Of a DNA stretch of 64,000 bases, positions 1,402 through 16,838 are shown piece by piece (position 1 is the stretch's first letter; every line of letters begins with the position of its first letter). Source of the stretch: Candidatus Heimdallarchaeum aukensis (lineage in GTDB: Archaea > Asgardarchaeota > Heimdallarchaeia > Heimdallarchaeales > Heimdallarchaeaceae); contig CP084166.1 in NCBI GenBank assembly GCA_021513695.1, positions 480,001 to 544,000 on the forward strand, given 5' to 3'. Below the pieces are notes generated by a model, which searched no databases, had not been told where the DNA came from, and saw only the letters and a program-made list of their open reading frames with translations. The position numbers were made by a program, and so were the translations under genes.

Positions 1402-2976
1402 ATGGCTCGTATTACTCATATTGGACATGATAAAGGAATTTTGGAAGAAAAAAGACAAACAATACTTTCACTAAGAGAAAAGTCTCTAAAAGGTGGGGGA
1501 GAGGAAAAAATAGCCAGTCAACACAATAAAGGAAAGCTTACTGCGAGAGAGAGAATAGAATTATTGGTTGACGAAAATTCTTTTTGCGAAATAGATCAAA
1601 TAAGAAAATCTCAACATTCTGAATTAGAAATGGAAAAAATAGAAGGAGACGGTGTAGTAACAGGTTATGCAACTATTAATGGTAGACGAGTCTTTATTTA
1701 TAGTCAAGATTTTACCGTTTTGGGAGGAAGTTTAGGAAAAACTCACGCAAAAAAAATTTGTAAAGTTATGGATCTTGCTCTTCAGAGTGGGTGTCCTATA
1801 ATAGGGTTACTTGACTCTGGAGGAGCAAGAATTCAAGAAGGAATAGATTCTCTAGCTGGTTATGGTGAAATATTTTATAGAAATGTAATGAGTTCAGGGG
1901 TAATTCCCCAAGTTTCTATTATTTTGGGTCCTTGTGCTGGAGGAGCGGTCTATTCTCCTGCCCTAACTGATTTTATTATTATGAATCAAATTAATTCATT
2001 TATGTTTGTTACTGGCCCTCAAGTTGTTAAGACAGTTACCGGTGAAGATGTTTCATTCTATGATTTAGGAGGAAGTGAAGTACATAGTTCACTTAGCGGA
2101 GTAAGTCATTTAGTAGGAGAAGATGAAGAGGAAACGATAAATTTAGCTAAGAGACTCTTATCTTACCTTCCATCGAACAATTTAGATGACCCTCCACAAG
2201 AAATAGATGATATCGAAGAAAATGATCAAGATATTCTTTCTGATATTATTCCTGAGCAGGAAAATGAACCTTATGATATGAAAAAAGTAGTTGAAACAGT
2301 TTTAGACCAAGACAGTTTCTTTGAATTACAAGAAAATTGGGCAAAAAACATTATTGTTGGTTTCGGAAGATTAGAAGGTTTAACTGTCGGTATTATTGCA
2401 AACCAACCTTTATTTCTTGGAGGAGCTATAGAATATAATGCTGCGGATAAAGCAGCAAGATTTATTCGTTTTTGTGATTCATTTAACATCCCTATAATTA
2501 CTTTTGTTGATGTACCTGGTTTTATGCCAGGATTAAAACAAGAGGAAGAAGGAATAATTCGTCATGGAGCTAAAATGCTTTTTGCTTATTCAGAAGCTAC
2601 TGTCCCAAAACTTGCAGTAATAACAAGAAAAGCTTATGGAGGAGCTTATATTGTTATGAGCTCAAAGCATTTAGGAGCTGATATTAATTTTGCTTGGCCT
2701 ACAGCAGAAATAGCTGTCATGGGGGCAGAGGGAGCTTGTAATATTATTTATAGAAAAGAACTGAAAAAAGCTGAAAATCCAGAACAAGCTTTGCAAGATT
2801 TTGTTGTAAAATACAAAAAACAGTTCAGCAATCCTATTCGAGCAGCTGAGAAAGGATATGTTGACAAAGTTATTTTGCCTGAAGAAACAAGAATTGAACT
2901 TTCTAATGCCTTGAAATTTTTACAAAATAAAAGGATAGATACCCCGAAAAGAAAACACGGGAATATTCCACTTTAA
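1402..2976 (+). CDS. pccB: Acyl-CoA carboxylase carboxyltransferase subunit (PccB/AccD5 type)
   Basis: 524 aa. Motifs seen: LDSGGARIQEG, GPCAGGAVYSPAL, DVPGFMPG, HGAKMLFAY, AYGGAYIVM. It has the two-halved crotonase-like carboxyltransferase layout. Confidence 0.9.
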   Translation: MARITHIGHDKGILEEKRQTILSLREKSLKGGGEEKIASQHNKGKLTARERIELLVDENSFCEIDQIRKSQHSELEMEKIEGDGVVTGYATINGRRVFIYSQDFTVLGGSLGKTHAKKICKVMDLALQSGCPIIGLLDSGGARIQEGIDSLAGYGEIFYRNVMSSGVIPQVSIILGPCAGGAVYSPALTDFIIMNQINSFMFVTGPQVVKTVTGEDVSFYDLGGSEVHSSLSGVSHLVGEDEEETINLAKRLLSYLPSNNLDDPPQEIDDIEENDQDILSDIIPEQENEPYDMKKVVETVLDQDSFFELQENWAKNIIVGFGRLEGLTVGIIANQPLFLGGAIEYNAADKAARFIRFCDSFNIPIITFVDVPGFMPGLKQEEEGIIRHGAKMLFAYSEATVPKLAVITRKAYGGAYIVMSSKHLGADINFAWPTAEIAVMGAEGACNIIYRKELKKAENPEQALQDFVVKYKKQFSNPIRAAEKGYVDKVILPEETRIELSNALKFLQNKRIDTPKRKHGNIPL

Positions 2977-2997: not shown

Positions 2998-5900
2998 ATG
3001 AAAACTCTAAAAGAACTAAAAAATGAACTACAAATTAAATATCCAATTTTTGGATATAATCCTATCGGACTTGCTGATCCCACGTTAGCTATTGAAATCT
3101 CCAAACTTGGAGGAGTGGGATTAATTAACACTATTGGACTTGAACAAGAAGAACTAACTAAGATTCTTGATCAATGCGAACTTAATCTACCCACACAACT
3201 ATGGGGAATAAGGATTAACGATCTTTCTCACATTAAATGGATTAATCATGAACGAAGTATTCCAATCGTTATCCTACCGGAGAAACCTACAAGATTACAA
3301 CTGGATAAACTGCGTAAAATAAGTAAATTTATTGTCGCTGAAGTTTTATTTGTTGAAGAAGCAAAAAGTCATCTTGAATGGTCAGATTTCTTTTTAGTTA
3401 AAGGTATTGAAGCAGGAGGAAAAGTTGGTACAAAAGCTTCTTTTATTCAGATTCAAGAGTTTTATGAAACTGGATGGCCTTTTATCATTCAAGGAGGAAT
3501 GGGTGCTTTTAATATTAGTTCTGCTCTAATAGGAGGAGCAATAGGAGTAGTTTTTGAGGGACAATTATATCAATTTCCTGAATGTCCTCTTTCTGAAGAA
3601 GCGAAAAAGTATCTTGCTTCTTTAGGTGAAAATGATTCTTTCATTATCAATGAAAGTGGTAAAGAAGGTTACAGAATTTCTGGAAAACTAGCTAACAAAG
3701 CAATTAGAGAAATAAAACAACTAGAAGAAGAATCAAGTGAGGAAAAAATACTTGATAGAATTACTGAATTTGAAAAACCTCACGATCAATTTGGTTTTAA
3801 GAGTCAGAACATTAAACACGCATTTTTACCACTAGGTAACGATGTTTTCTTCTCCACATTCTTCAAGAAAAGATTTGGAAATTTAACAAATTTTGTGGAG
3901 CAAGCTCTTAAGATAGCTGATGAACAAATACAGATTGCTCTAAGAAATTGGCCTTTTGCAAAAGGTTCTACTTTATCCAACTTTCTAGGTACAAAATATC
4001 CTATTATTCAAGGCCCTATGGCTAATGTTTCTGATAATGTAGACTTTGCTATTAATGTAGCGAAAAATGGAGCTCTTCCTTTCTTAGCTTTGGGTGGATT
4101 ACTAAAAGAAGAAACTGAGGAGCTTTTTGATAAAGTTAGAGAAAGTGAACTTGTAAAATATTCCTATGGTTGTGGGATTATAGGTTTAGAAGCAGTTAAA
4201 CAAAGGAGAGAAGAGCACCTTTCTTTAATGAGAGATCTTAAACCTCCCTTTGCTTTGATTGCTGCTGGAACAGTTAATTTAGCTAAACAAGTACAAGAAA
4301 TGGGTTTTAAGACTTTATTACACACTCCCGCTCTATCAATGTTTAAAGATTCTATCAAAAATGGAATAGATTTACAAATTTTAGAAGGGAGTGAATGTGG
4401 AGGACATATTGGACTTCTTTCATCTTTTATTTTATGGGAAAGTATTTTGGAATTTTTAGATGAAAATAGAGAACAGATAGAAAAACCTTTGAAAATAGCT
4501 TTTGCAGGAGGGATATCTGACGGCACTAGTTCTGCGATGCTAGCAGTTATGATTGCTAAACATCTAGATATTATAGAATCAGCAATACAGATGGGTACAT
4601 CCTACTTATTTACTGAAGAGATTCTAGAAACAAAGGCTTTAACTGGATTTTATCAAGAACTTCTTCTTAATTCTAACTACACCAGAATTATAGGCTCAAC
4701 AGTAAATACTCGAGCACGAGCTGCTCCTTCACCTTTTGTAGATCAAACAATTAAAAGAGAAAGAGAGAGAATTAGACAAAAAATACCAATAAAAGAAAGA
4801 AAAGAACTTTACGAGAAAGATAATCTAGGAGCTTTAAGAATTGCAGCTAAAGCTGAAAAATGGAATAACGATCATGTTCCTGGTACTGCAACTACACAGT
4901 TTATAAAAATCGATGAAGAGGAACAGAAAAACTTTGGTTGCTTTATGGCTGGAGAAGTAATAGCAAAGAAACGTAGTATTTACAAGATAGATGACCTACA
5001 CTATGATATTTCAGTAATTGGAAAAGAAATCTTAGAAAAGCAATCAACTTCTATTGCTGATTATTTACTTTCAAAAGAAAAACTAGAAGCTTATGTTTCT
5101 AAAGAACAAAGTCCTCTAGTTATAGATAGTACTAATAAAATTGCTATAGTAGGAATAGGTAGTTTCTTCCCTGATGCTCCAAACACAGAAAAATTCTGGG
5201 AAAATATTGTTAACAAACATTATGCTGTAACTGAAGTACCTATTGAAAGATGGGATCCTAAATATTATTATGACGAAGATCGAACCGCTCCAGACAAGAC
5301 TTATACCAAAATTGGAGCGTTTGTAAAAGAATTTAAATTTAAACCTATTCAATTCAAGATTCCTCCTAAAGTAGCTGAAAAGATGGATGAAGTTCAGAAA
5401 TGGTCATTAATTGCTGCAAAAGAAGCTTTAGAAGATGCTGGAATACCCACAGATGGCAAGAAACGCCTACCTATAGGAGTAATTGTAGGCAATGCTTTAG
5501 GTGGAGAAAATCAGAGAATTACTAACAGGAGATTACACTATCCAGAAATTGAAGAACAACTAAAAATTTTATTAAGCTCAAAATTGTCTGATGAGGAAGT
5601 AGAAAAGTTTGTTTCTTCTTTCAAGAAAGAATATCTCAGTAAATACGCAGAGATTACAGAGGATACTATGCCTGGAGAATTATCTAATGTTGTTGCGGGA
5701 AGAATAGCCAATATATTCAATTTATCTGGTAAATCAATGACAACAGATGCTGCATGTGCTTCTTCTCTTGCTGCTCTGGACATTGCGGTAAAAAGTTTGT
5801 TGAATAACGATTTTGATACTATTCTTGTTGGCGGAGCAGATAGATCTATGGATGTTTCTTCTTATGTTAAATTCAGTAAGATCGGTGCTCTTTCTGCAAC

Positions 5901-7518
5901 TGGTTCTCGACCTTTTGATTCCAAGGCAGACGGTTTTGTAATGGGAGAAGGATGTGGTTTTCTTGTCTTGAAGAAATTGAAAAAAGCTATTGAAGACAAT
6001 GACAAAATTTATGCCATAATTGATTCTGTTGGTTCTTCCTCTGATGGTAAAGGAAAAGGAATTACTGCTCCTAATCCTTTAGGACAAAAAGAAGCTATTG
6101 AAAGAGCTCTTGAACAAGCTAAAGTTTCTCCTTCTGAGATAGATTTAATTGAAGCACATGGAACTTCCACCATAGTAGGAGATAAAACAGAAGTTCAAGT
6201 TTTAAATGAGATTTTCACAGAAAAACAAAAAGAAAGAAAAAGGAAAATAGCTCTTGGTTCAATTAAAAGCCAAATTGGTCATTTAAAGAGCGCAGCAGGT
6301 ATAGCTTCTGTTATAAAAGTAGCTTTAGCTCTTGACAAGAAAATTCTTCCACCAACGATAAATGTTCAAGAACTTAATCCTGCGATTGATTGGAATAATT
6401 CTAATCTTTTTGTTAATCTTGATGCTCAACCATGGGAAAAGGTTGATAACTCTATCAGAAGAGCAGGAGTTTCTGCTTTTGGTTTTGGAGGAACAAATTA
6501 TCATACAATCTTGGAAGAATATATTCCAGAAGCACAGTACATAGAAAAAGAAAAGCAACCAATAGTTGAACTAAAAGAACAAAAAGAAGAAGTTTGCTTC
6601 CTTTATACTGGACAAGGAAGTCAATATTTAGGCATGATAAAGGAACTTTATGATAATTATCCAACTGTTAGAAAAACAATAGATGAAGCTTCAGTTATTG
6701 CTAAAGAGAGTTTAAATGCTGATTTGCGTGAAATAATTTTTGGTTCACCTCAACTTTCCAAAGTTGAAAATGAGGAAAGATTAAGACAAACAGAATACAC
6801 TCAACCTTCTCTCTTTGTAGTCGAAGTTGCTTTAACTAGATTATTGAAAGAAAAAGGAATTGAGCCTACAAGAGTAGCTGGACATAGTTTAGGAGAATAT
6901 ACTGCTTTAGTTGCTGCGGGAGTGTTCTCTTTTGAAGATGGATTAAAAGCTGTAATAGAAAGAGGAAAAGCGATGGCAAAAGCTTCTAAAAGTATCCCTG
7001 GAGCAATGGCAGCTATTCTTACATCTCAAGAAAAAGTTAAGGAAATTATAGAAAAGGTAAATGAAGGTTATATAACAGTAGCCAATTATAACTCATTAAA
7101 CCAAACAGTGATTTCGGGAGAAGAAAAAGCTGTAAACAAAGCTATAGAACTTTTCTCTGCAAGAAAAATAAAAGCAATAAAATTAAATGTTTCAACAGCT
7201 TTTCATTCTATTATTGTTAAAGATGCAGAAATAGAAATGGAGAGAGTGCTTAACAGCCTGACTTACAATAAACCTTCAATTCCTGTCTATTCAAATGTAA
7301 CGGGAAGTTTGTACCCTGACAAACCCTCTAAAATTAAAGAACTTCTAATTAATCAGCTCTGTAATTCTGTTCAATGGGTTAAGATTTCAGAAATGGTCAT
7401 TAATTGCTGCAAAAGAAGCTTTAGAAGATGCTGGAATACCCACAGATGGCAAGAAACGCCTACCTATAGGAGTAATTGTAGGCAATGCTTTAGGTGGAGA
7501 AAATCAGAGAATTACTAA
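2998..7518 (+). CDS. Type I PUFA-synthase/PKS-like megasynthase, part 1 (ER-like, ER, KS, AT); 3' end is an out-of-frame read into a tandem duplication
   Basis: ATG 2998 lies 5 nt after a GAGGAGA SD. aa 14-245 form an NMO/FabK-like barrel with KGIEAGGKVG, where a Lys codon (3421-3423) sits where His is usual. aa 332-665 form a PfaD/FabK-type enoyl reductase (YPIIQGPMANVS, LEGSECGGHIG, His codon 4405-4407). aa 714-1170 form a ketosynthase (IAIVGIGSFFPDAP, TTDAACASS with Cys codon 5755-5757, EAHGTST, SQIGHLKSAAG). This is followed by a malonyl/acyl transferase (FLYTGQGSQY, GHSLGEY with Ser codon 6886-6888, AFHS). The last ~44 codons (from 7386) are frame-shifted KS sequence. Confidence 0.85.
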   Translation: MKTLKELKNELQIKYPIFGYNPIGLADPTLAIEISKLGGVGLINTIGLEQEELTKILDQCELNLPTQLWGIRINDLSHIKWINHERSIPIVILPEKPTRLQLDKLRKISKFIVAEVLFVEEAKSHLEWSDFFLVKGIEAGGKVGTKASFIQIQEFYETGWPFIIQGGMGAFNISSALIGGAIGVVFEGQLYQFPECPLSEEAKKYLASLGENDSFIINESGKEGYRISGKLANKAIREIKQLEEESSEEKILDRITEFEKPHDQFGFKSQNIKHAFLPLGNDVFFSTFFKKRFGNLTNFVEQALKIADEQIQIALRNWPFAKGSTLSNFLGTKYPIIQGPMANVSDNVDFAINVAKNGALPFLALGGLLKEETEELFDKVRESELVKYSYGCGIIGLEAVKQRREEHLSLMRDLKPPFALIAAGTVNLAKQVQEMGFKTLLHTPALSMFKDSIKNGIDLQILEGSECGGHIGLLSSFILWESILEFLDENREQIEKPLKIAFAGGISDGTSSAMLAVMIAKHLDIIESAIQMGTSYLFTEEILETKALTGFYQELLLNSNYTRIIGSTVNTRARAAPSPFVDQTIKRERERIRQKIPIKERKELYEKDNLGALRIAAKAEKWNNDHVPGTATTQFIKIDEEEQKNFGCFMAGEVIAKKRSIYKIDDLHYDISVIGKEILEKQSTSIADYLLSKEKLEAYVSKEQSPLVIDSTNKIAIVGIGSFFPDAPNTEKFWENIVNKHYAVTEVPIERWDPKYYYDEDRTAPDKTYTKIGAFVKEFKFKPIQFKIPPKVAEKMDEVQKWSLIAAKEALEDAGIPTDGKKRLPIGVIVGNALGGENQRITNRRLHYPEIEEQLKILLSSKLSDEEVEKFVSSFKKEYLSKYAEITEDTMPGELSNVVAGRIANIFNLSGKSMTTDAACASSLAALDIAVKSLLNNDFDTILVGGADRSMDVSSYVKFSKIGALSATGSRPFDSKADGFVMGEGCGFLVLKKLKKAIEDNDKIYAIIDSVGSSSDGKGKGITAPNPLGQKEAIERALEQAKVSPSEIDLIEAHGTSTIVGDKTEVQVLNEIFTEKQKERKRKIALGSIKSQIGHLKSAAGIASVIKVALALDKKILPPTINVQELNPAIDWNNSNLFVNLDAQPWEKVDNSIRRAGVSAFGFGGTNYHTILEEYIPEAQYIEKEKQPIVELKEQKEEVCFLYTGQGSQYLGMIKELYDNYPTVRKTIDEASVIAKESLNADLREIIFGSPQLSKVENEERLRQTEYTQPSLFVVEVALTRLLKEKGIEPTRVAGHSLGEYTALVAAGVFSFEDGLKAVIERGKAMAKASKSIPGAMAAILTSQEKVKEIIEKVNEGYITVANYNSLNQTVISGEEKAVNKAIELFSARKIKAIKLNVSTAFHSIIVKDAEIEMERVLNSLTYNKPSIPVYSNVTGSLYPDKPSKIKELLINQLCNSVQWVKISEMVINCCKRSFRRCWNTHRWQETPTYRSNCRQCFRWRKSENY

Positions 7519-9378
7519 CAGGAGATTACACTATCCAGAAATTGAAGAACAACTAAAAATTTTATTAAGCTCAAAATTGTCTGATGAGGAAGTAGAAAAG
7601 TTTGTTTCTTCTTTCAAGAAAGAATATCTCAGTAAATACGCAGAGATTACAGAGGATACTATGCCTGGAGAATTATCTAATGTTGTTGCGGGAAGAATAG
7701 CCAATATATTCAATTTATCTGGTAAATCAATGACAACAGATGCTGCATGTGCTTCTTCTCTTGCTGCTCTGGACATTGCGGTAAAAAGTTTGTTGAATAA
7801 CGATTTTGATACTATTCTTGTTGGCGGAGCAGATAGATCTATGGATGTTTCTTCTTATGTTAAATTCAGTAAGATCGGTGCTCTTTCTGCAACTGGTTCT
7901 CGACCTTTTGATTCCAAGGCAGACGGTTTTGTAATGGGAGAAGGATGTGGTTTTCTTGTCTTGAAGAAATTGAAAAAAGCTATTGAAGACAATGACAAAA
8001 TTTATGCCATAATTGATTCTGTTGGTTCTTCCTCTGATGGTAAAGGAAAAGGAATTACTGCTCCTAATCCTTTAGGACAAAAAGAAGCTATTGAAAGAGC
8101 TCTTGAACAAGCTAAAGTTTCTCCTTCTGAGATAGATTTAATTGAAGCACATGGAACTTCCACCATAGTAGGAGATAAAACAGAAGTTCAAGTTTTAAAT
8201 GAGATTTTCACAGAAAAACAAAAAGAAAGAAAAAGGAAAATAGCTCTTGGTTCAATTAAAAGCCAAATTGGTCATTTAAAGAGCGCAGCAGGTATAGCTT
8301 CTGTTATAAAAGTAGCTTTAGCTCTTGACAAGAAAATTCTTCCACCAACGATAAATGTTCAAGAACTTAATCCTGCGATTGATTGGAATAATTCTAATCT
8401 TTTTGTTAATCTTGATGCTCAACCATGGGAAAAGGTTGATAACTCTATCAGAAGAGCAGGAGTTTCTGCTTTTGGTTTTGGAGGAACAAATTATCATACA
8501 ATCTTGGAAGAATATATTCCAGAAGCACAGTACATAGAAAAAGAAAAGCAACCAATAGTTGAACTAAAAGAACAAAAAGAAGAAGTTTGCTTCCTTTATA
8601 CTGGACAAGGAAGTCAATATTTAGGCATGATAAAGGAACTTTATGATAATTATCCAACTGTTAGAAAAACAATAGATGAAGCTTCAGTTATTGCTAAAGA
8701 GAGTTTAAATGCTGATTTGCGTGAAATAATTTTTGGTTCACCTCAACTTTCCAAAGTTGAAAATGAGGAAAGATTAAGACAAACAGAATACACTCAACCT
8801 TCTCTCTTTGTAGTCGAAGTTGCTTTAACTAGATTATTGAAAGAAAAAGGAATTGAGCCTACAAGAGTAGCTGGACATAGTTTAGGAGAATATACTGCTT
8901 TAGTTGCTGCGGGAGTGTTCTCTTTTGAAGATGGATTAAAAGCTGTAATAGAAAGAGGAAAAGCGATGGCAAAAGCTTCTAAAAGTATCCCTGGAGCAAT
9001 GGCAGCTATTCTTACATCTCAAGAAAAAGTTAAGGAAATTATAGAAAAGGTAAATGAAGGTTATATAACAGTAGCCAATTATAACTCATTAAACCAAACA
9101 GTGATTTCGGGAGAAGAAAAAGCTGTAAACAAAGCTATAGAACTTTTCTCTGCAAGAAAAATAAAAGCAATAAAATTAAATGTTTCAACAGCTTTTCATT
9201 CTATTATTGTTAAAGATGCAGAAATAGAAATGGAGAGAGTGCTTAACAGCCTGACTTACAATAAACCTTCAATTCCTGTCTATTCAAATGTAACGGGAAG
9301 TTTGTACCCTGACAAACCCTCTAAAATTAAAGAACTTCTAATTAATCAGCTCTGTAATTCTGTTCAATGGGTTAAGAT
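5393..9378. repeat. Head-to-tail tandem duplication, 2 x 1,993 bp (copy 1 5393-7385, copy 2 7386-9378), inside the synthase KS-AT region
   Basis: All shadow ORFs recur at an offset of exactly 1,993 with identical translations (5538-5783 vs 7531-7776; 6325-6558 vs 8318-8551; 6362-6544 vs 8355-8537; 6455-6664 vs 8448-8657). About 600 aa of the main frame are identical between copies. The junction reads gttaagat|ttcagaaatgg. 1,993 is not a multiple of 3. Confidence 0.95.
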
Positions 9379-12300
9379 AATTGAAGAGATGTATAACGAT
9401 GGAGGAAGAATTTTTGTAGAAGTAGGACCTAAAAAAGCATTGTACAACTTTGTTAAAGATATTTTAGGTGAAAAAGAAGACATTCAAACTTTTCTTACAT
9501 TAAACCCGAAAGTAGGAGAGTTAAAATCTTTTAATGATACTGTCTCTAAATTAAAAATGAGCAAAAGAAGAGAAACCGAAACCCCAGTTCAAACTAAAGA
9601 AAAAATAGTTTACAAAGAATCAGCACTAGATGTTTTACTTAAAAATAAAGAGATTAACAACTTGGTCTCTAAACCCTATTTCCGTGAGTATTTGAAAGAG
9701 AACAGCAATCTTCTTTCATCTATAATGAAACAAGGTTACGAGCAGTTCTCAAAGTACAGAGAATCATTGGTTATTGCTGAAAAAGCTAAATATTGGGATA
9801 TAAACTTTGATCTTATTGGTGTTACTGGTGTTGGAATTGGTCTCCCAGGAAAGAATAGAGCTGTTTTCTCTGATGATAATTTTGATCTTATTCTCAATGG
9901 AACAAATCTTATCGAATCTGTTGAAGATACAATAAAACAAGAAACTTTAGACAAAAACATCGTTAGGTTAGTTAAATCTCCTGATGGTAATGCAACTTTT
10001 GAAGCAATTGACGATATAAGTAAAGTTATTCAACTTGCAGCACAGATAGGAGAATTAAACTTCAAAGAATTAGGTATAGAAGATAAATTGGCTAAAGCTT
10101 TAGACTCCACTTTTATTATGGCTATAGGTGCAGGACTAGAAGCGTTGAAAGATGCTGGTATTCCTCTTGTTGAAAGCAAAATAGTTACTTCAACTGGAAA
10201 AACTTTGAAAGGGAGCTGGACTTTACCAGAATCCTTACAACATGATACTGGAATAGTTTTTGCTTCTGCTTTTCCCGGATATGATAATTTAGTAGATGAA
10301 GTAACAAGACATCTTGTAGCTAAATTTGAAAACAAAACTAATAAAGAGATTGAGGAGATATTTGAGCAATTAATTAATGTTGTATCAAACCCTGAAGCAA
10401 AAGAAGAGATCTCTAACTGGTTCTTGGAGAAACAATCTCTACTGGAAGAAAAAGAAGAAAAGTATACTTTTAGTAGAGAGTTCCTTTACAAAGTTTTGTC
10501 TATGGGGCACTCTCAATTTGCCCAATTTATTAAAGCTAAAGGTCCGAATACTCAAGTCAATGCTGCTTGTGCTTCTACAACCCAAGCAATTGGTGTAGCA
10601 GAAGATTGGATAAGAACTGGAAGATGTAAGAGAGTAATAGTAATAGCTGGAGACAATGCTGCAAGCAAGAATCTGTTACCTTGGATAGGTGGGGGATTCT
10701 TAGCAGCTGGGGGAGTAACCACAAAAGCCGATGTTAAAGAAGCTGCTTTACCTTTTGGAAAAGAAAGACATGGATTAATTATAGGTTCAGCTTCTGCAGG
10801 TCTTGTAATTGAAAGCAGAGAATCCTATGAAGAAAGAGGAGTTAAACCAATAGTAGACCTTGTGGGTACTTATATGGCAAATAGTGCTTATCATGGTTCT
10901 AGATTAGATGTCAACCATATTTCTGAAGAACTTGAAAGCTTTATTGAAAAAGTAGAAAGAAGATATAATATCGACAGGAAAAATATCGCTAAAGAAGGTA
11001 TTTTTGTCTCTCATGAAACTTATACACCTGCAAGAGGAGGAAGTGCAGAAGCAGAAATTCAATCACTTCTTAATGTTTTCAAAGAAGATGCTTATTCTAT
11101 GACCATAATAAACACAAAAGGATTTACAGGTCATTCAATGGGTGCAGGAATAGAAGAAGCTGTAGCTATTAAAGCAATAGAAAAAGGTAAGATTCCTCCA
11201 ATTGCTAACATAGAGAAACTTGACCCTGCCTTTTCTAAATTTAAGTTCTCAAAAGGAGAAAAGAGAAGATTTTCCTTCGCTTTGAGATTAGCAGCTGGAT
11301 TTGGGTCACAATTAGCTTTTGCTCTCTTCAGGTTAAATACTTACGACAACAGATTCTCTGCCCAATACAATGAATGGCTCAAGAGTCTTGGTGGTGGCAA
11401 AGAAGAGTTATTTGTTGAAGGCAGAGTACTTAAACTCAAAACAGATAATAAGAAAAAACAAGCTGATTTAGTTAAGAAACCAGCAGTACAAAAAACTGTT
11501 GAAAAGAAAATTAAAACTGTTACAAAAGCACCTACAGATATTCTTCAAGTTGTAAAAGATATTATTTCTGAAAAAACAGGTTATGAAACAGAAGTCATTG
11601 AAGAAAATATGCATTTAGAAGAAGATCTTGGGATTGACAGTATTAAAGCAGCAGAAATAATGAACGATATTAGCGATAAATGGTCAATACCTCAAGAAAA
11701 ACTCTTCGAACAATTTGATATCGATACACCAGGAAAAATTGCAAAGTTCATTTCTGAAAACACAAGCGCTCCTGAAGAGACAAGTTATTCAGTTGAAACA
11801 ACTGTAGCAAAAGAGGAAGTAAAAAGAGCAGAAACTTCTAGTGTTTCAACAGGAGATATTTTAGTGCGAATTAAAGAAGTAATTGGAAAACACACAGGTT
11901 ATGACATTCAAGATCTAGATGAAAACTATGACCTAGAAGAAGATCTGGGAATAGATACAGTAAAACAAGCAGAAATTTTTGGAGATTTAAGAGATTTATT
12001 CGGATTGGATTTAGATGAGACTTATGCTTTAGCAGATTATCGAACAATAGCTGACATTGCCCAAGCAATATCTACAGAGAAACCAGTGGAAAAGGTTAAA
12101 CAAGTGGAAACTGAAGAAAGCGGAGAGATTAGAACAGCACAACAACCAACAATCATATCTGAAGCTGAAAGTTCAATTTCCAGAGAAGAAGTTACAAAAG
12201 AAGTGCTTTCAATTATCTCAGAAATTACAGGATACGATACAGAAGATATAGAAATAGAGATGGATCTAGAGGAAGATTTGGGTGTTGATAGTATCAAGAT

Positions 12301-15300
12301 TGCTGAAATTCTAAGCTCTTTGGGAAGTAAGTTCGACCTTGAATTTGATGAGATGTCTGATCTTTCAGGAATTAGAAATACAGAAGATATAGTGGAAGCA
12401 GTGATAAAAATTAAGCAATCCATTGAACAAACTCAAACCCCAACCAAAACAGAAGAACAATTAGCTGTAAGTCAAAAACTTAAAGTTGAACAAGAAGAAG
12501 AAATAGTTATTCGTAGTGTAGAACCTGTTCTAAAGCCTTTAGAACAAAGTGAAGTAAATAAATTTAATCTAGAAGATAAAAATCTCTTACTTCTAGATAT
12601 TCATTCAAAAGAAGCCAAATATATCTATTCTTTACTTGAACAGAAGAAGGCTAAAATTGAGCTTGTTAGGATTAATTCTGAAGACTCAGAAAAACCAAAT
12701 AATAATAAATATGACTTAATCTTAATCTTATTACCAGATGATCACAATTCTGCAAATGATACTAAATACTTTGAGCAACTATTTCTTACCCTACAACAGC
12801 TAGAGTACAATCATAATACTAAGATTGTTTCTTACTCTGTTGAAGACTATTTAGACTCTAAAAAGGAGATAATTCCTTTAAGTGGAGGTATATCCGCTTT
12901 TGTTAAGACTATTGGTCAAGAATTTGAACTAGACATTAAACATGTTTATTCCACAAAACCTGAAGAACTAGTTACAGAGTTGGAAAATTGGGATAAAAAC
13001 CTTGAAGTTATTTATTCAGAGGGTAAAAGATACATTTTCAGTCACATGAGAAAAATACCTCTAGAACAATTACAAAAAGAAAAAATCGAACTTACAGAAG
13101 ATGATCTTATACTTGTTACTGGAGGAGCAAGAGGTATCACTTATGAATGTATTAAAGAACTTACAAAAGATGCTAAACCTTCAATTGCTATCGTTGGTAG
13201 AACTAAACTTCCAGAAGATGTATCTGAATTGCTCTTCTTAACCGACAAAGAAATAGCAAACAAAAAAGAAGAGATAAAAGAAAAACTTGCTCAAGAAAAT
13301 GAAAAAGTTACTCCAGTGATGATAGAAAAAGCTTGGAAACGCTTCCTAAACACTGTTGAAATTGCAAAGAATATTCTCTATTTAATTGAAAATGAAGTGA
13401 ATGCTAACTATTATTCTGCAGATGTTTCAGATGAAGAACAAATGAAAAGTGTTTTGAGTCAAATTGAAGAAGATTTCGAAAAAACTATAACTCTTATTGT
13501 ACATGGTGCGGGAATAGAAGAATCTAAAGCTTTCAAGAAAAAGAAACTAGAAATGGCAAAGAAAATAGTACAAGTAAAGATTTCAGGGTTATACAATATT
13601 CTAAATAATATAGATCAATCTAATTTGAAGAAGATCATCTGCTTTAGCTCAATTGCAGGAAGATTTGGTAATAGAGGACAAGTGGATTATGCTTTTGCAA
13701 ATGGTTATCTAGCTAGAACATGCTGGAAGTTTAAACAACAAGGAATTAACGCTCTAGCTATAGATTGGTCAGCTTGGGCAGATATAGGCATGGCAACACA
13801 AGGTTCTATTCTTAAAGTGCTGAAAGCTGCAGGAATAACTCCCATTCCATTAAAAGAAGGAATAAGAATATTTTCTGAACTAACCAATTACAATGTAGAA
13901 CAAAGTGAATTAATAGTTGCAGGAAAACTTGGACTTCTTCTAAAAGAAATAGAAGATAAAAAAACAAGTGGTCAACACGATACTAGTATGAACACAGAGA
14001 GTTATCCAATGATTGATGAAATTAGAAAAACAGACAACGGTTTTATTGCTTCAAAGACACTAAAATATGATTATGACTTATACATGAGAGATCATCAAAT
14101 CCAAGGATTGCCAATATTTCCTGCAGTAATGGGATTAGAATTCTTCGCTGAGATGTTCAAACTTACAACAGAAAAAGATGTTTACGCAATAGCAGAAGTA
14201 TCGTTTAGAGAAGCAATTAAACAGTTTAAGAACAAAAATGTTGAACTTCAATGTTCATTTGATACAGAAAGAGGGGATATGGAAATTAAAACAATCTTTA
14301 CAGACATTAAAGGAGTTCAAAAAGAAAAGAAACACTTCTTCTGTAAGTCTGTAAAAGATACGACAGAAAAAAGCTATAAGAAAAAGAAGATAGAAAAAAG
14401 AGTGATACCACTACTTTCCAAAGAAGTGATCTATCAGCTTTTCTTCCATGGTCCAAGTTTTCAAGTTTTGGAGAATTTGAATGAGATAAAAGGAAATATC
14501 ATCTCCACTAATGTCCAGATTCCAAATCTGCCTTTATTCAAAGATGAAGAATTGAAAACTATTCTCGTTCCTCGAGCAATAGAAGCGGCTTTACAGACAG
14601 CAGGGTTGTATGACATGTTCATTAACAATGTTGTTTCATTGCCATCAAAAATAAAAAACTTGGAAGTATACAAGGAAACAGAAGCTGTTTTTGCTGAAGC
14701 TGAATTCCTAAAGATAGAGGAAAGACATAGTTTCTTCAATGTAAAGATTTACGATGCTGAAGGAGAAGTAATAATGGTTTTAGAACAACTAGGAATGATA
14801 CATACTTCTATGCCCATAAATTTGGACGAAAAAGGAAAGAAACTCTTCCAGATGATTAAAGGATATCATGAAATAAGAACAAAAGTAGATGACGAAAAAG
14901 TAGCTGTTTTACCTATTCACAAAGTAGTAGAAGAATACAGAAAAAATAGACAAGAACTAGAAAATAAACTAGTTGCTTACGAAAAAACAAGATTTACTAA
15001 AATATCCAACGAAAAAAGAAAAATGGAATATTTAGCGGGAGTAATCCTTGCTAAAGAACTTTTTTCCAAATATGAAAACATTACCGATTTCAGAAGTATA
15101 GAAATAAAAAAGAAGAGTAAGGGGCAACCTTACTTTTTCAACAGACAACTAAAAGAAGAAACGGATTGGTATGTTTCTATTAGTCATTCAAATGATTTCG
15201 CTGTAGTCTCTATTGAGAAACAACCAGTAGGAATAGACATAGAAAAAGTAGAAGAAAGAAGTAAAAGTTTCTATGGCGAAGTTTTTTCAGATTATGAATT

Positions 15301-15538
15301 ATCAAAAATTGCTGATGACCATACTTTAGGAACAAAATATTGGACTGCTAAAGAGTCATTAACTAAAGCATTAGGAGAAGGATTACATATTAAACTAAAA
15401 GAAATTGAGTTTGGTTACAACGATGGCAAATTTGATCTAAAAAAATATCCTTCTTCTCTAAAACAAGATCAATTGCAGACTTCTATTGAATCTATTGAAG
15501 CAGCAGGTTATGTTGTTTCTAAATGTGTAATAAAATAA
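7577..15538 (+). CDS. Type I PUFA-synthase/PKS-like megasynthase, part 2 (KS remnant, AT, second KS, 3 ACP, KR, DH, PPTase); the called start is not a real start
   Basis: The frame is the KS frame of duplication copy 2, and TTG 7577 is internal to the KS. KS Cys codon is 7748-7750 and AT Ser codon is 8879-8881. The second KS-like domain spans aa 745-1255 (GVTGVGIGLPG; NAACAST with Cys codon 10568-10570; SHETYTP; TGHSMGAG). ACP1 has LGIDS (Ser codon 11639-11641), ACP2 has LGIDT (Thr codon 11957-11959) and ACP3 has LGVDS (Ser codon 12290-12292). KR shows LVTGGARGIT from 13106 and GNRGQVDYAFAN. The PKS-type DH has HQIQGLPIFP (His codon 14093-14095). The C-terminal 4'-phosphopantetheinyl transferase has GIDIEKV from 15230 and WTAKESLTKALG. 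Confidence 0.85.
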   Translation: MSDEEVEKFVSSFKKEYLSKYAEITEDTMPGELSNVVAGRIANIFNLSGKSMTTDAACASSLAALDIAVKSLLNNDFDTILVGGADRSMDVSSYVKFSKIGALSATGSRPFDSKADGFVMGEGCGFLVLKKLKKAIEDNDKIYAIIDSVGSSSDGKGKGITAPNPLGQKEAIERALEQAKVSPSEIDLIEAHGTSTIVGDKTEVQVLNEIFTEKQKERKRKIALGSIKSQIGHLKSAAGIASVIKVALALDKKILPPTINVQELNPAIDWNNSNLFVNLDAQPWEKVDNSIRRAGVSAFGFGGTNYHTILEEYIPEAQYIEKEKQPIVELKEQKEEVCFLYTGQGSQYLGMIKELYDNYPTVRKTIDEASVIAKESLNADLREIIFGSPQLSKVENEERLRQTEYTQPSLFVVEVALTRLLKEKGIEPTRVAGHSLGEYTALVAAGVFSFEDGLKAVIERGKAMAKASKSIPGAMAAILTSQEKVKEIIEKVNEGYITVANYNSLNQTVISGEEKAVNKAIELFSARKIKAIKLNVSTAFHSIIVKDAEIEMERVLNSLTYNKPSIPVYSNVTGSLYPDKPSKIKELLINQLCNSVQWVKIIEEMYNDGGRIFVEVGPKKALYNFVKDILGEKEDIQTFLTLNPKVGELKSFNDTVSKLKMSKRRETETPVQTKEKIVYKESALDVLLKNKEINNLVSKPYFREYLKENSNLLSSIMKQGYEQFSKYRESLVIAEKAKYWDINFDLIGVTGVGIGLPGKNRAVFSDDNFDLILNGTNLIESVEDTIKQETLDKNIVRLVKSPDGNATFEAIDDISKVIQLAAQIGELNFKELGIEDKLAKALDSTFIMAIGAGLEALKDAGIPLVESKIVTSTGKTLKGSWTLPESLQHDTGIVFASAFPGYDNLVDEVTRHLVAKFENKTNKEIEEIFEQLINVVSNPEAKEEISNWFLEKQSLLEEKEEKYTFSREFLYKVLSMGHSQFAQFIKAKGPNTQVNAACASTTQAIGVAEDWIRTGRCKRVIVIAGDNAASKNLLPWIGGGFLAAGGVTTKADVKEAALPFGKERHGLIIGSASAGLVIESRESYEERGVKPIVDLVGTYMANSAYHGSRLDVNHISEELESFIEKVERRYNIDRKNIAKEGIFVSHETYTPARGGSAEAEIQSLLNVFKEDAYSMTIINTKGFTGHSMGAGIEEAVAIKAIEKGKIPPIANIEKLDPAFSKFKFSKGEKRRFSFALRLAAGFGSQLAFALFRLNTYDNRFSAQYNEWLKSLGGGKEELFVEGRVLKLKTDNKKKQADLVKKPAVQKTVEKKIKTVTKAPTDILQVVKDIISEKTGYETEVIEENMHLEEDLGIDSIKAAEIMNDISDKWSIPQEKLFEQFDIDTPGKIAKFISENTSAPEETSYSVETTVAKEEVKRAETSSVSTGDILVRIKEVIGKHTGYDIQDLDENYDLEEDLGIDTVKQAEIFGDLRDLFGLDLDETYALADYRTIADIAQAISTEKPVEKVKQVETEESGEIRTAQQPTIISEAESSISREEVTKEVLSIISEITGYDTEDIEIEMDLEEDLGVDSIKIAEILSSLGSKFDLEFDEMSDLSGIRNTEDIVEAVIKIKQSIEQTQTPTKTEEQLAVSQKLKVEQEEEIVIRSVEPVLKPLEQSEVNKFNLEDKNLLLLDIHSKEAKYIYSLLEQKKAKIELVRINSEDSEKPNNNKYDLILILLPDDHNSANDTKYFEQLFLTLQQLEYNHNTKIVSYSVEDYLDSKKEIIPLSGGISAFVKTIGQEFELDIKHVYSTKPEELVTELENWDKNLEVIYSEGKRYIFSHMRKIPLEQLQKEKIELTEDDLILVTGGARGITYECIKELTKDAKPSIAIVGRTKLPEDVSELLFLTDKEIANKKEEIKEKLAQENEKVTPVMIEKAWKRFLNTVEIAKNILYLIENEVNANYYSADVSDEEQMKSVLSQIEEDFEKTITLIVHGAGIEESKAFKKKKLEMAKKIVQVKISGLYNILNNIDQSNLKKIICFSSIAGRFGNRGQVDYAFANGYLARTCWKFKQQGINALAIDWSAWADIGMATQGSILKVLKAAGITPIPLKEGIRIFSELTNYNVEQSELIVAGKLGLLLKEIEDKKTSGQHDTSMNTESYPMIDEIRKTDNGFIASKTLKYDYDLYMRDHQIQGLPIFPAVMGLEFFAEMFKLTTEKDVYAIAEVSFREAIKQFKNKNVELQCSFDTERGDMEIKTIFTDIKGVQKEKKHFFCKSVKDTTEKSYKKKKIEKRVIPLLSKEVIYQLFFHGPSFQVLENLNEIKGNIISTNVQIPNLPLFKDEELKTILVPRAIEAALQTAGLYDMFINNVVSLPSKIKNLEVYKETEAVFAEAEFLKIEERHSFFNVKIYDAEGEVIMVLEQLGMIHTSMPINLDEKGKKLFQMIKGYHEIRTKVDDEKVAVLPIHKVVEEYRKNRQELENKLVAYEKTRFTKISNEKRKMEYLAGVILAKELFSKYENITDFRSIEIKKKSKGQPYFFNRQLKEETDWYVSISHSNDFAVVSIEKQPVGIDIEKVEERSKSFYGEVFSDYELSKIADDHTLGTKYWTAKESLTKALGEGLHIKLKEIEFGYNDGKFDLKKYPSSLKQDQLQTSIESIEAAGYVVSKCVIK

Positions 15539-15572: not shown

Positions 15573-16334
15573 ATGTTACAACTGAATTATGATATAAAAT
15601 TTAGAAAGGATTTCATTCATGGAATTCTTTATTTGCCGGATGAAGAGGGGCAGTTCCCTTTAGTTATAAGATTGAACGGTTTTCCGGGCAATTCTCCAGA
15701 AAAAGAAGAACAAAGATTAGCAGATATTATCACCCAGAATAATATGGCTTTTTATGCCTTTGACTATGTAGGAGTAAGAAAAAGTACAGGGACATTTAAT
15801 TATTATACGAGTTTGGAAAACATAAATACTGTTATAACAGATTTATCACATCATCCTCGAATTAATCCTGCAAAGATTGCTCTTCTTGGAGAAAGCTTCG
15901 GAGGAGCAATGGCAATAAGCCAAGGAGTAAGAGACCAAAGAATAAAATGTATTGTTTTAAGGTCTCCTGTATATGATACTGAAGTTATTCCTCAAATACC
16001 GTCTTTTAATACTTTAGTTAAAATATGGTCCAGAAACAATCAAATACGTTTCCCTAAAGGAGACATAAGTGAATTATACTACAAACAAACTAATCTTTAC
16101 AATCCTAAAAAAATAGCAAATTTAGTTAATTGCCCCGTAAAATTGATTGCAGGAGATAAAGATGAGTTGTTGGAAGTTAAGGGTTTTAGAGAACTTTACA
16201 AATGTTTACCACGGAAACTAAGAAAAGGAATTGATATCATTAAAGGAGCAGATCATAACTTTACTAAACAAAAACAGTTTATAGAATTAAAGAGTGAACT
16301 TTCCAGCTTTTTGACTTGTTGCCTTTTAGGGTAA
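15573..16334 (+). CDS. Alpha/beta-fold hydrolase (dienelactone hydrolase / BAAT-type thioesterase-like)
   Basis: GESFGG forms a GxSxG nucleophile elbow. Downstream AGDKDELL supplies the Asp and GADHNF the His. An AGGTGAT SD lies 6 nt before the ATG. Length is 253 aa. Confidence 0.75.
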   Translation: MLQLNYDIKFRKDFIHGILYLPDEEGQFPLVIRLNGFPGNSPEKEEQRLADIITQNNMAFYAFDYVGVRKSTGTFNYYTSLENINTVITDLSHHPRINPAKIALLGESFGGAMAISQGVRDQRIKCIVLRSPVYDTEVIPQIPSFNTLVKIWSRNNQIRFPKGDISELYYKQTNLYNPKKIANLVNCPVKLIAGDKDELLEVKGFRELYKCLPRKLRKGIDIIKGADHNFTKQKQFIELKSELSSFLTCCLLG

Positions 16335-16355
16335 ATAACTTATGGAGTGCAAAAG

Positions 16356-16838
16356 ATGAAGAAAAAAATAATCTACAACAATGAAGAATACATAATAGAA
16401 GCTAAAGGAGAAGACGAGATAGTAGTGAATAATAAGACTTTCAAAGTTAACTTAAAAGAGAAAAACAAGAATTTTTTCAATATAGAAATTCAAGGAAAGA
16501 AGTTTATTATAGAAGTAAGAGAAGGAGAATTCTATTTAGACGGAGAGAAAATAGAAAAATTATCAATTAGCCCCTATTTTCCACAATTAAAGAAACAAAA
16601 ACAAATGATTAACTCTCAAAAAGAAGTAGTAAAAGCACCTATACCAGGAACTATAACTCAAATACTAGTTAAAGAAGGAGATACAGTAAAAAAAGACCAA
16701 GAATTATTTATCCTTGAAGCGATGAAAATGAGAAATAGAATCTTAACAACCATTGACAAAGGTGTAGTAAAAAAAATCTACGTTAGCGAGAATGAAACTG
16801 TATCTCAAGATCAAAAACTAGCTATAATTGAAAATTAA
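16356..16838 (+). CDS. accB: Biotin carboxyl carrier protein (archaeal AccB-type, biotinyl domain)
   Basis: The C-terminal biotinyl domain carries the EAMKM motif (ILEAMKMRNRI). A GGAGTG SD lies 6 nt before ATG 16356, whereas the ORF caller started at GTG 16347. Its size of about 160 aa resembles archaeal AccB. Confidence 0.8.
   Translation: MKKKIIYNNEEYIIEAKGEDEIVVNNKTFKVNLKEKNKNFFNIEIQGKKFIIEVREGEFYLDGEKIEKLSISPYFPQLKKQKQMINSQKEVVKAPIPGTITQILVKEGDTVKKDQELFILEAMKMRNRILTTIDKGVVKKIYVSENETVSQDQKLAIIEN

What the first reader, a model, noticed from the sequence alone, without database searches (positions are those of the whole stretch)
2998..15538. Single-polypeptide ER-ER-KS-AT-KS-ACPx3-KR-DH-PPTase synthase (3,515 aa when the duplication is collapsed)
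Seen: removing one 1,993-bp repeat unit joins 2998-7385 to 9379-15538. The sum is 10,548 nt, or 3,516 codons, in frame. The domain order was read from catalytic motifs (coordinates are in the feature entries). Established: PfaA is KS-MAT-ACPn-KR-DH with tandem ACPs, and PfaD is a separate NMO-like ER. Enediyne PKSE is KS-AT-ACP-KR-DH-PPTase, and fungal FAS alpha also ends in a PPTase. Inference: this protein merges PfaD, PfaA and PKSE features into one chain that can prime itself. I do not recognise this architecture from characterised systems.
Basis: partly seen in the sequence, partly recalled or inferred. Interest (0 to 1): 0.85.

Follow-up and report, generated by a model that had tools for sequence, protein, structure and literature searches.

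The report
Archaeal fatty-acid megasynthase split by duplication
This is one 3,515-residue, bacterial-type iterative fatty-acid/polyketide synthase gene in an Asgard (Heimdall-group) archaeon; it belongs to a widespread, uncharacterised synthase family and could supply the fatty acids for the bacterial-type lipid genes puzzlingly found in these archaea.

Summary
Window 5393-7385 and 7386-9378 are a 100% identical 1,993-bp tandem duplication. Removing one copy gives a 10,548-nt ORF of 3,515 aa. An independent short-read contig, 100% identical to the window, and a 95% relative both carry a single copy. The unbroken gene is therefore the native state.

Domain callers confirm ER-ER-KS-AT-KS-ACPx3-KR-DH-PPTase.

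The architecture is not unique:
- The core KS-AT-KS-ACPn-KR-DH with a PPTase matches the "Type R secondary lipid synthase" catalogued in 2011, product unknown. At least 596 species genomes carry a relative.
- The fully fused order occurs uninterrupted in other Asgard MAGs and in Desulfomonilia-type bacteria.

Refinements:
- ER1 is a FabK-like barrel that never carries the catalytic His; ER2 always does.
- The second KS keeps Cys-His-His, so it is not a chain-length factor.
- No link to enediyne PKSE was found.

The gene sits in a conserved Asgard operon with biotin ligase, carboxyltransferase, an alpha/beta-hydrolase, BCCP and biotin carboxylase. Here it also lies next to plsY.

Most likely function (inferred): a self-priming iterative type I synthase making reduced fatty acyl chains.

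An unexpected family-wide trait: Thr replaces the carrier-domain phosphopantetheine Ser.

The parts
2998..15538 (+). The megasynthase gene as it stands in this assembly. It is interrupted by one extra 1,993-bp unit. Native form = 2998-7385 joined to 9379-15538 (3,515 aa).
5393..7385 (+). Tandem duplication 1, copy 1 (KS1 from aa 799 to AT aa 1462).
7386..9378 (+). Tandem duplication 1, copy 2. It is 100% identical to copy 1 and absent from contigs L084 and L087.
2998..3927 (+). ER1: FabK-like TIM-barrel domain (aa 1-310). It has Lys142 where FabK has its catalytic His, and is probably non-catalytic.
3955..5097 (+). ER2: FabK-like enoyl reductase (aa 320-700) with the invariant motif ECGGH(470)IG.
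5125..6564 (+). KS1 (aa 710-1189), PKS-type ketosynthase. Motifs: DAACAS, EAHGTST, KSQIGH.
8573..9493 (+). AT, the intact copy (aa 1195-1501). Motifs: GQGSQ, GHSLGE, TAFHS (malonyl-type). The first copy, 6580-7385, is cut at aa 1462 by the duplication.
9788..11410 (+). KS2 (aa 1600-2140), FabF-like second ketosynthase with a complete Cys-His-His triad (NAACAS, SHETYTP, GFTGH). This is the 'CLF' of the Type R description.
11543..11770 (+). ACP1, attachment motif LGIDS (Ser2217).
11858..12085 (+). ACP2, attachment motif LGIDT (Thr2323 at the canonical Ser position).
12188..12415 (+). ACP3, attachment motif LGVDS (Ser2434).
12488..13960 (+). KR with its structural subdomain (aa 2500-2990). Motifs: TGGARGIT, S...YAFAN.
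13988..14860 (+). PKS-type double-hotdog DH (aa 3000-3290). Motifs: HQIQGLPIFP, FHGPSF, ExxxQ.
14888..15535 (+). C-terminal Sfp/HetI-type PPTase (aa 3300-3515). Motifs: GIDIE, WTAKES.
1402..2976 (+). Acyl-CoA carboxylase carboxyltransferase subunit, directly upstream. The position is conserved in the Asgard loci.
542..1288 (-). Biotin protein ligase, a conserved neighbour.
3..503 (+). PlsY (acyl-phosphate:glycerol-phosphate acyltransferase), cut by the window start. This adjacency is seen only in this organism (L084).
15573..16334 (+). Alpha/beta-hydrolase (GESFGG nucleophile elbow), a conserved downstream neighbour. Candidate chain-release enzyme (inferred).
16347..16838 (+). Biotin carboxyl carrier protein (EAMKM motif).
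35862..37442 (-). Biotin carboxylase. It lies directly after BCCP in relatives L004, L006, L036 and L085. Here it is displaced by about 19 kb.

Best explanation
The locus is one gene for a 3,515-aa iterative type I fatty-acid/polyketide-type synthase of the Type R secondary-lipid-synthase lineage. In this form an N-terminal FabK-like ER didomain and a C-terminal Sfp-type PPTase are fused to the core. The host is an Asgard archaeon of the Heimdall group. The split into two ORFs comes from a 1,993-bp perfect tandem duplication. That duplication is most likely an artefact of a long-read assembly, or a rare variant, and not the native gene. Proposed mechanism (inferred from domain content and motifs): (1) the clustered carboxyltransferase, BCCP and biotin carboxylase, with the biotin ligase, make malonyl-CoA; (2) the cis PPTase primes the three carrier domains; (3) the malonyl-type AT loads them; (4) KS1 (PKS-type) and KS2 (FabF-type, catalytically complete) carry out the condensations, probably dividing the work by chain length; (5) KR, the PKS-type DH and ER2 fully reduce each beta-carbon, while ER1 serves as a non-catalytic partner of ER2. 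The product would be a saturated or largely saturated long acyl chain. It would be released or transferred by the conserved alpha/beta-hydrolase, and in this organism possibly passed on to PlsY.
For: Single gene. Full-length uninterrupted homologues. Domains and catalytic motifs. ER didomain model (pLDDT 93.5, pTM 0.94) with FabK as best fold match (TM 0.86). ER2 His is present in 43/43 homologues and the ER1 equivalent in 0/43. KS2 Cys, His and His are invariant. No FabA-type dehydratase/isomerase domain, so no PUFA chemistry. Conserved operon BPL / CT / synthase / hydrolase / BCCP / BC in L004, L006, L036, L088 and L089, and CT-BC-BCCP beside the Roseiflexus and Thermoplasmatota versions. 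Archaeal host: Nre and archaeal ATPase genes in the window; the best homologues are Heimdall, Hod and Promethearchaeota MAGs. Long-read error signature: the two copies of the second duplication differ by homopolymer indels that the short-read contig resolves.
Against: No product, activity or expression data exist for any member of this family; Shulse & Allen list the product as unknown. Chain length, degree of reduction and the release step are pure inference. The plsY adjacency is not conserved in the other Asgard loci. ACP2 here, and nearly all ACPs in relatives, carry Thr at the Ser site; priming of Thr is undemonstrated. I saw no reads, so the duplication cannot be proven an artefact. The second tandem duplication nearby does seem supported by the short-read graph, so real duplications may occur in this genome.
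Confidence: 0.6

Rival explanations
1. The 1,993-bp duplication is real and fixed in this strain. The synthase is then a recent pseudogene, or a two-polypeptide version: ORF1 carries ER-ER-KS1 and a truncated AT, and ORF2 carries a truncated KS1, then AT-KS2-ACP3-KR-DH-PPT.
For: The duplication is present in the given assembly. A second tandem duplication 7.6 kb downstream coincides exactly with contig ends of the independent short-read assembly. L086 equals one unit, and L084 ends about 30 nt into the unit, as expected for a branch in a k=31 graph. Between them, ORF1 and ORF2 still contain one intact copy of every domain.
Against: The 100%-identical short-read contig L084 runs straight through both boundaries of duplication 1 with a single copy. 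The 95% relative L087 also has a single copy. The junction 40-mer is absent from metagenome contigs. ORF2 would have to start at a TTG inside KS1. The rest of the 10.5-kb frame carries no other lesion, so any disruption must be very recent.
Confidence: 0.15
2. The enzyme is a secondary-metabolite polyketide synthase. It would make a specialised lipid, such as a hydroxylated or partly unsaturated long chain, a glycolipid aglycone or a hydrocarbon precursor. It would not supply membrane fatty acids.
For: KS1-AT is most similar to PKS KS-AT didomains. The PPTase is closest to HetI, which serves heterocyst glycolipid synthesis. BGC-mining papers classify Asgard hits as PKS (PMC7472256; PMC11051675). 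Many bacterial hosts of Type R also have a normal FAS II (PMC3098273). ER1 is degenerate and only one ER is catalytic.
Against: A full KR-DH-ER reducing set is present. The AT is malonyl-specific. There are tandem ACPs and a dedicated acetyl-CoA-carboxylase-type operon. The window and the related loci show no tailoring enzymes, glycosyltransferases or thioester reductase. The gene lies next to plsY here.
Confidence: 0.25
3. It is a polyunsaturated fatty acid (Pfa-type) synthase or an enediyne PKSE-type synthase.
For: It shares with PfaA the order KS-MAT-ACPn-KR-DH, and tandem ACPs. It shares with PKSE the KR-DH-PPTase tail.
Against: There are no FabA-like DH/isomerase domains, no PfaB-type AT and no true CLF, because KS2 keeps its Cys. 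PKSE has one KS and one ACP; this protein has two KS and three ACPs. No enediyne cassette or hotdog thioesterase lies nearby. An ER is present, which is incompatible with a conjugated polyene product.
Confidence: 0.03

Closest known systems
Type R secondary lipid synthase (Shulse & Allen 2011, PLoS One 6:e20146; Koribacter, Solibacter, Elusimicrobium, Roseiflexus)
   Same: The core order is the same: KS-MAT-second KS ('CLF')-tandem ACPs-KR(-DH), with a dedicated PPTase. The KS2 domain is 44-50% identical to the versions in Roseiflexus, Korobacteraceae, Bryobacteraceae and Elusimicrobia. Both are associated with acetyl-CoA carboxylase genes. The ACPs carry Thr at the attachment site.
   Different: Here the PPTase is fused to the C-terminus, not encoded as a separate downstream gene. 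A FabK-like ER1-ER2 didomain is fused to the N-terminus. The host is an archaeon. Two of the three ACPs have reverted to Ser.
PfaA / Pfa PUFA synthase (pfaABCDE) and the heterocyst glycolipid synthase HglE
   Same: An iterative type I FAS/PKS hybrid with tandem ACPs, a malonyl AT, KR and a PKS-type DH. The ER belongs to the FMN-dependent NMO superfamily. The PPTase is of the Sfp/HetI type.
   Different: There is no PfaC (KS-CLF-FabA-type DH x2) and no PfaB. A second active KS is inserted between AT and the ACPs. The ER fold is closer to FabK than to PfaD. Everything is on one chain.
Enediyne PKSE (KS-AT-ACP-KR-DH-PPTase)
   Same: A C-terminal cis PPTase follows KR-DH on an iterative synthase.
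   Different: This protein has two KS, three ACPs and an ER. There is no enediyne cassette nearby, and no specific sequence affinity was found.
FabK (FMN-dependent enoyl-ACP reductase II)
   Same: Both ER1 and ER2 match FabK by sequence and by predicted fold (TM 0.86). ER2 keeps the GGH catalytic motif.
   Different: The two barrels are tandem-fused and embedded in a megasynthase. ER1 has lost the His in all 43 homologues examined.

Membership tests
Type R secondary lipid synthase (Shulse & Allen 2011) | pfaA homologue with the order KS-MAT-'CLF'(second KS)-ACP(3-6)-KR | tested here: met
   Pfam order on the collapsed ORF; three ACPs.
Type R secondary lipid synthase (Shulse & Allen 2011) | Homology to the synthases of the named Type R hosts (Roseiflexus, Koribacter/Solibacter lineages, Elusimicrobia) | tested here: met
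   KS2 is 44-47% identical to L032 Roseiflexus, L038 Korobacteraceae, L042 Bryobacteraceae and L021/L025/L053 Elusimicrobia. All of these with enough contig show KS1-AT-KS2-ACPn-KR-DH.
Type R secondary lipid synthase (Shulse & Allen 2011) | PPTase encoded by a separate gene immediately downstream | tested here: not met
   Here, and in L004, L036, L033, L061 and the Thermoplasmatota loci, the PPTase is the C-terminal domain of the same ORF. It is the same function in a different gene structure.
Pfa-type PUFA synthase | PfaC-type KS-CLF followed by two FabA-like dehydratase/isomerase domains | tested here: not met
   Pfam finds no FabA-like domain at E<=0.01 on any segment. KS2 keeps the catalytic Cys and resembles FabF, not PfaC KS-CLF 6riw.
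Pfa-type PUFA synthase | Separate PfaB acyltransferase and PfaD enoyl reductase | tested here: not met
   No such genes are among the neighbours. The ER is fused, and its fold is nearer FabK (TM 0.86) than PfaD (TM about 0.4).
Enediyne PKSE | Single KS, single ACP, no ER; accompanied by the enediyne minimal cassette and a hotdog thioesterase | tested here: not met
   Two KS, three ACPs and two ER-like domains. The neighbours are ACC subunits, biotin ligase, an alpha/beta-hydrolase and plsY.
FabK-type enoyl-ACP reductase (ER2) | TIM-barrel fold with the catalytic His in the E-x-G-G-H motif | tested here: met
   ECGGH470IG aligns with FabK ESGGHVG. The His is invariant in 43/43 homologues. Fold match to 2z6i, 3bo9 and 7l00. 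Activity was not tested.
FabK-type enoyl-ACP reductase (ER1) | Catalytic His in the G-G-H motif | tested here: not met
   Lys142 aligns with the FabK His. This position is never His in 43 homologues (R, W, L, I, K and others).
Sfp-type 4'-phosphopantetheinyl transferase | Two-lobed AASDHPPT_N + ACPS domains with the G-x-D-x-E and W/F-x-x-K-E motifs | tested here: met
   Pfam PF22624 + PF01648. GIDIE and WTAKES are conserved across the fused homologues. Matches to Sfp 1qr0 and to HetI.
Sfp-type 4'-phosphopantetheinyl transferase | Self-phosphopantetheinylation of the cis ACPs | not testable with these tools
   Needs intact-mass or radiolabel assays. The Thr at the ACP2 site makes the outcome non-obvious.

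The most novel reading that the evidence does not exclude
Heimdall-group Asgard archaea make straight-chain fatty acids de novo with this single self-priming megasynthase, fed by its own acetyl-CoA carboxylase operon. They hand the acyl chains to PlsY to build ester lipids. This would be a genetically defined, testable route across the archaeal/bacterial 'lipid divide' in the closest relatives of eukaryotes. In addition, the whole family would use phosphopantetheinyl-threonine, not -serine, on its carrier domains.
Probability: 0.3. Interest if true: 0.85.

Novelty: new variant of a known kind. Interest (0 to 1): 0.55.

Why it matters
Asgard archaea are known to carry the bacterial plsY and plsC genes, yet no source of fatty acyl chains has been pinned down. 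Reviews up to 2026 still call their lipid composition an open question (PMC13400652, PMC12993045). A conserved operon that encodes malonyl-CoA supply plus a complete, self-activating reducing synthase gives a concrete gene to express and to knock into lipid models. For PKS/FAS enzymology there are three new handles on a very widespread but unstudied synthase class: the family-wide Thr at the carrier attachment site, the degenerate-plus-active ER pair, and the KS-AT-KS arrangement with two complete active sites. For genome curation, the case shows that the two-ORF annotation in this assembly should be treated as a duplication error until reads say otherwise.

Tried and rejected
- The whole 3,515-aa protein as a homology query failed (time-out). 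I used domain-sized queries instead.
- The search for homologous proteins listed no hit longer than 1,222 aa in either search. It therefore gave no full-length homologues to judge full-length architecture. I parsed stop-to-stop ORFs of fetched loci with phmmer, using the window's own domains as probes.
- The exhaustive representative search with ER-ER-KS1 was swamped by multi-KS modular PKSs. Only five full-coverage hits were usable.
- Rfam, tRNA and tandem-repeat scans of the window were empty or irrelevant.
- Literature searches for Asgard + PfaA, for Asgard + ketoacyl synthase + ACP, and for threonine phosphopantetheinylation returned nothing. The library is limited, so this is not proof of absence.
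- An NJ tree of KS2 was too crude to decide the direction of transfer, and it lost several Asgard sequences whose hits were split. I draw no phylogenetic conclusion from it.
- I could not establish the domain order of 'Type S' (Desulfobacterium autotrophicum) from the paper text. It may be the ER-fused form seen in the Desulfobacterales locus L058.
- I suspected that the window comes from a published circularised Heimdallarchaeum genome assembled from Nanopore reads (PMC8813620). I could not verify this and do not assert it.
- I considered and rejected PUFA synthase, enediyne PKSE and fungal-type FAS on domain content.

Full report
**1. The observation**

The region holds two large same-strand ORFs, 2998-7518 (1,506 aa) and 7577-15538 (2,653 aa). 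An offset comparison and a self-BLAST show that 5393-7385 and 7386-9378 are a perfect head-to-tail duplication of 1,993 bp. Because 1,993 is not a multiple of three, the second copy shifts the frame. ORF1 ends 44 out-of-frame codons after the junction. ORF2 starts at a TTG inside the second KS copy.

**2. Is the collapsed gene the real one?**

Looking up the upstream carboxyltransferase by exact sequence returned a Logan short-read contig (L084, run SRR15988954, 13,596 nt).
- L084 is 100% identical to the window over 1-7385 and 7386-14969, but it contains a single copy of the 1,993-bp unit.
- The gene in L084 is one open frame of at least 3,344 aa that runs off the contig end.
- The 40-mer across the duplication junction has no match in the JGI metagenome collection.
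- The 40-mer of the native join matches contig L087, which is 95% identical and also single-copy.

A second tandem duplication lies just downstream (14992-17692 / 17688-20388; 2.7 kb, 99.9% identical).
- Its two copies differ only by one boundary mismatch and two homopolymer indels. The short-read contig L086 resolves each of these. This is the signature of a long-read consensus.
- L086 equals exactly one repeat unit. L084 ends about 30 nt into that unit, as expected from a branch in a k=31 graph. This is an inference from contig ends; I saw no reads.
- So duplication 2 may be real, whereas duplication 1 leaves no trace in the same read set.

I conclude that the intact 3,515-aa gene is the native state. 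Duplication 1 is an assembly artefact or a rare variant (about 0.75-0.85 versus 0.15 for a fixed, real disruption).

**3. Domains**

Pfam on the collapsed protein gives, in order:
- NMO-type reductase signal over aa 1-700
- KS N and C halves plus the C-terminal extension
- acyltransferase
- a second, more divergent KS
- three PP-binding domains
- KR
- PKS_DH_N plus PS-DH
- AASDHPPT_N plus ACPS

NCBIfam matches both halves of the N-terminal region to FabK, KS2 to FabF and the PPTase to HetI.

An alignment with six full-length homologues shows the catalytic motifs:

| Domain | Motifs |
|---|---|
| KS1 | Cys/His/His (DAACAS, EAHGTST, KSQIGH) |
| AT | GQGSQ, GHSLGE, TAFHS (malonyl-type) |
| KS2 | Cys/His/His (NAACAS, SHETYTP, GFTGH) |
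| KR | TGGARGIT and YAFAN |
| DH | HxxxGxxxxP, GPSF, ExxxQ |
| PPTase | GIDIE and WTAKES |

KS2 is therefore a complete ketosynthase, not a chain-length factor. The same Cys and both His are invariant in a 22-sequence alignment.

The ER region is two FabK-like barrels.
- In PDB alignments the FabK 'GGH' His pairs with His470 of ER2 but with Lys142 of ER1.
- In 43 homologues ER2 has His in 43/43. ER1 never has it; the position holds R, W, L, I, K and others.
- An AlphaFold model of aa 1-705 is confident (pLDDT 93.5, pTM 0.94).
- Its best structural matches are FabK structures (TM 0.86). PfaD is far behind (TM about 0.4).

I infer that ER1 is a non-catalytic partner of ER2, analogous to KS/CLF pairs. 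I could not analyse the interface.

**4. Host and neighbourhood**

The window is archaeal. It carries archaeal Nre, an archaeal-type ATPase, a type III-B Cmr module and Csm6. The best homologues of KS2 and of ER-ER are Heimdallarchaeota, Hodarchaeota, 'Promethearchaeota' and Thor-labelled MAGs at 46-62% identity.

The gene order biotin ligase(-) / carboxyltransferase / synthase / alpha/beta-hydrolase / BCCP / biotin carboxylase(-) recurs in L004, L006 and L036. It recurs in part in L001, L007, L088 and L089. Thermoplasmatota and Roseiflexus versions also sit beside CT, BC and BCCP genes.

In this window biotin carboxylase (35862-37442) is separated from BCCP by about 19 kb. That stretch holds the second duplication copy, Csm6, the Cmr genes and others. 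In the 94% relative L085 biotin carboxylase follows BCCP directly, so the stretch is an inserted island.

plsY lies two genes upstream here and in L084. It was not found beside the synthase in the other Asgard loci.

**5. How common is the architecture?**

A pattern scan of one genome per GTDB species found at least 596 loci encoding a KS2 relative. I parsed the best 80 loci with the window's own domains.
- The usual bacterial form is KS1-AT-KS2-ACP(2-6)-KR-DH followed by a separate PPTase gene. It occurs in Chloroflexota, Acidobacteriota, Actinomycetota, Myxococcota, Elusimicrobiota, Spirochaetia, Saprospiraceae and Calditrichia.
- Thermoplasmatota fuse the PPTase to the synthase.
- The complete ER1-ER2-KS1-AT-KS2-ACPn-KR-DH-PPT chain occurs, uninterrupted, in two Asgard MAGs (L004, 3,376 aa; L036, 3,525 aa) and two Desulfomonilaceae-type MAGs (L033, L061; 3,559-3,730 aa).
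- L047 and L065 (about 3,560-3,580 aa) show the same order, except that my probe did not detect their DH. The alignment nevertheless shows the DH motifs in them.
- Two cluster representatives of the exhaustive protein library show the same order (P0123, 3,356 aa; P0214, 3,592 aa).

**6. What is known**

Shulse & Allen (2011, PMC3098273) defined 'Type R' secondary lipid synthases as one pfaA homologue, KS-MAT-CLF-ACP(3-6)-KR, with a downstream PPTase gene. They found it in Koribacter, Solibacter, Elusimicrobium and Roseiflexus. They noted an ACC gene inside the Koribacter cluster and listed the product as unknown. My loci include those lineages.

A 2020 BGC survey noted KS domains 'nearest PUFA' in a Heimdallarchaeota MAG and went no further (PMC7472256). 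Papers on Asgard lipids discuss plsY and plsC but no acyl-chain source. I found no paper that links the two, within a limited library.

**7. Mechanism**

Shown: the domain set, intact catalytic motifs and the conserved ACC operon.

Inferred:
- Malonyl-CoA is made by the clustered carboxylase.
- The cis PPTase primes the ACPs.
- The AT loads malonyl units.
- KS1 and KS2 share the condensations.
- KR, DH and ER2 give full reduction. The absence of FabA-type domains argues against cis double bonds.
- The conserved esterase-like alpha/beta-hydrolase (GESFGG) releases or transfers the chain.
- In this organism the chain may be handed on to PlsY.

The main rival is a specialised-lipid PKS role (0.25). 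PUFA or enediyne chemistry is very unlikely (0.03).

**8. An unexpected trait**

In 211 of about 223 carrier domains across the related loci, the residue at the canonical phosphopantetheine Ser is Thr (LGIDTV). PDB alignments confirm that this position pairs with the DS-motif Ser of solved ACPs. Only this organism and its 94-95% relatives have Ser, in ACP1 and ACP3 (AGT codons, one change away from ACT). That only Ser or Thr is tolerated suggests that the hydroxyl is used. Whether the dedicated PPTases modify Thr is untested.

**9. Verdict**

The architecture is real, but it is a fused archaeal variant of a catalogued, widespread and still uncharacterised family. Its interest lies less in uniqueness than in three things: its conserved presence in Asgard archaea with a malonyl-CoA supply operon, its link to the lipid-divide question, and the Thr-ACP, pseudo-ER and double-KS features.

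Noticed in passing
window 14992-17692 and 17688-20388: A second tandem duplication (2.7 kb, 99.9% identical). It covers the PPTase end of the synthase, the alpha/beta-hydrolase, BCCP and the 3' part of Csm6. It creates a stand-alone 184-aa PPTase fragment ORF (17680-18234) and a truncated Csm6 copy (17074-17661). Its boundaries coincide with the ends of independent short-read contigs L084 and L086, so it may be real.
   Followed up: partly
window 15554 and 19466 (and the matching positions in the other copy): The two copies of duplication 2 differ by single-base indels in A-rich homopolymer tracts. The short-read contig L086 has the longer version at both sites. The indel at about 19466 frameshifts the second BCCP copy (19044-19517, 157 aa, loses its C-terminus). 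This points to residual long-read consensus errors in the assembly.
   Followed up: yes
ACP domains of loci L004-L083; window 11543-12415: Across the family the carrier-domain attachment motif is LG(I/V)D-Thr, in 211 of about 223 domains. Ser appears only in this organism and its close relatives (pattern S-T-S). Phosphopantetheinylation of Thr would be unusual chemistry. No literature was found.
   Followed up: partly
window 2998-3927 (ER1): The first FabK-like barrel has lost the catalytic His in every one of 43 homologues, while keeping the G-x-E-A-G-G loop. The ER1-ER2 pair is predicted as one rigid unit (pTM 0.94). It may be a pseudo-dimer with a single active site.
   Followed up: partly
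window ~17700-35860: About 19 kb separate BCCP from biotin carboxylase. This stretch carries Csm6 (19770-20999), a type III-B Cmr module (21112-27569, minus strand), a proprotein-convertase-domain protein and a STAND/TPR ATPase. In L085, L004, L006 and L036 biotin carboxylase follows BCCP directly, so this looks like an island inserted into the lipid operon. The window holds no CRISPR array.
   Followed up: partly
L087 3748-3750 (reverse-complement coordinates), equivalent to window ~4489: The 95%-identical metagenome relative has TAG where the window has TTG (Leu498, in ER2). This is an in-frame stop in an otherwise open gene. It could be a sequencing error, a pseudogene or a recoded codon.
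   Followed up: partly
L002 10001-13279; L003: A stand-alone 583-aa KS2 homologue (54% identical to the window's KS2) lies next to an HMG-CoA-synthase-like gene and an alpha/beta-hydrolase, on a contig with bacterial-type neighbouring genes. This is a dissociated use of this KS type.
   Followed up: no
L052, L067, L071, L075 (Anaerolineae): Variants of the synthase carry one or two extra ACP-like domains between KS1 and AT, or between AT and KS2.
   Followed up: no
L088 1425-7251: In a Thor-labelled Asgard MAG the operon is preceded by two thiolases, an acyl-CoA dehydrogenase and ETF alpha/beta. Beta-oxidation-type genes thus sit next to the synthase.
   Followed up: no
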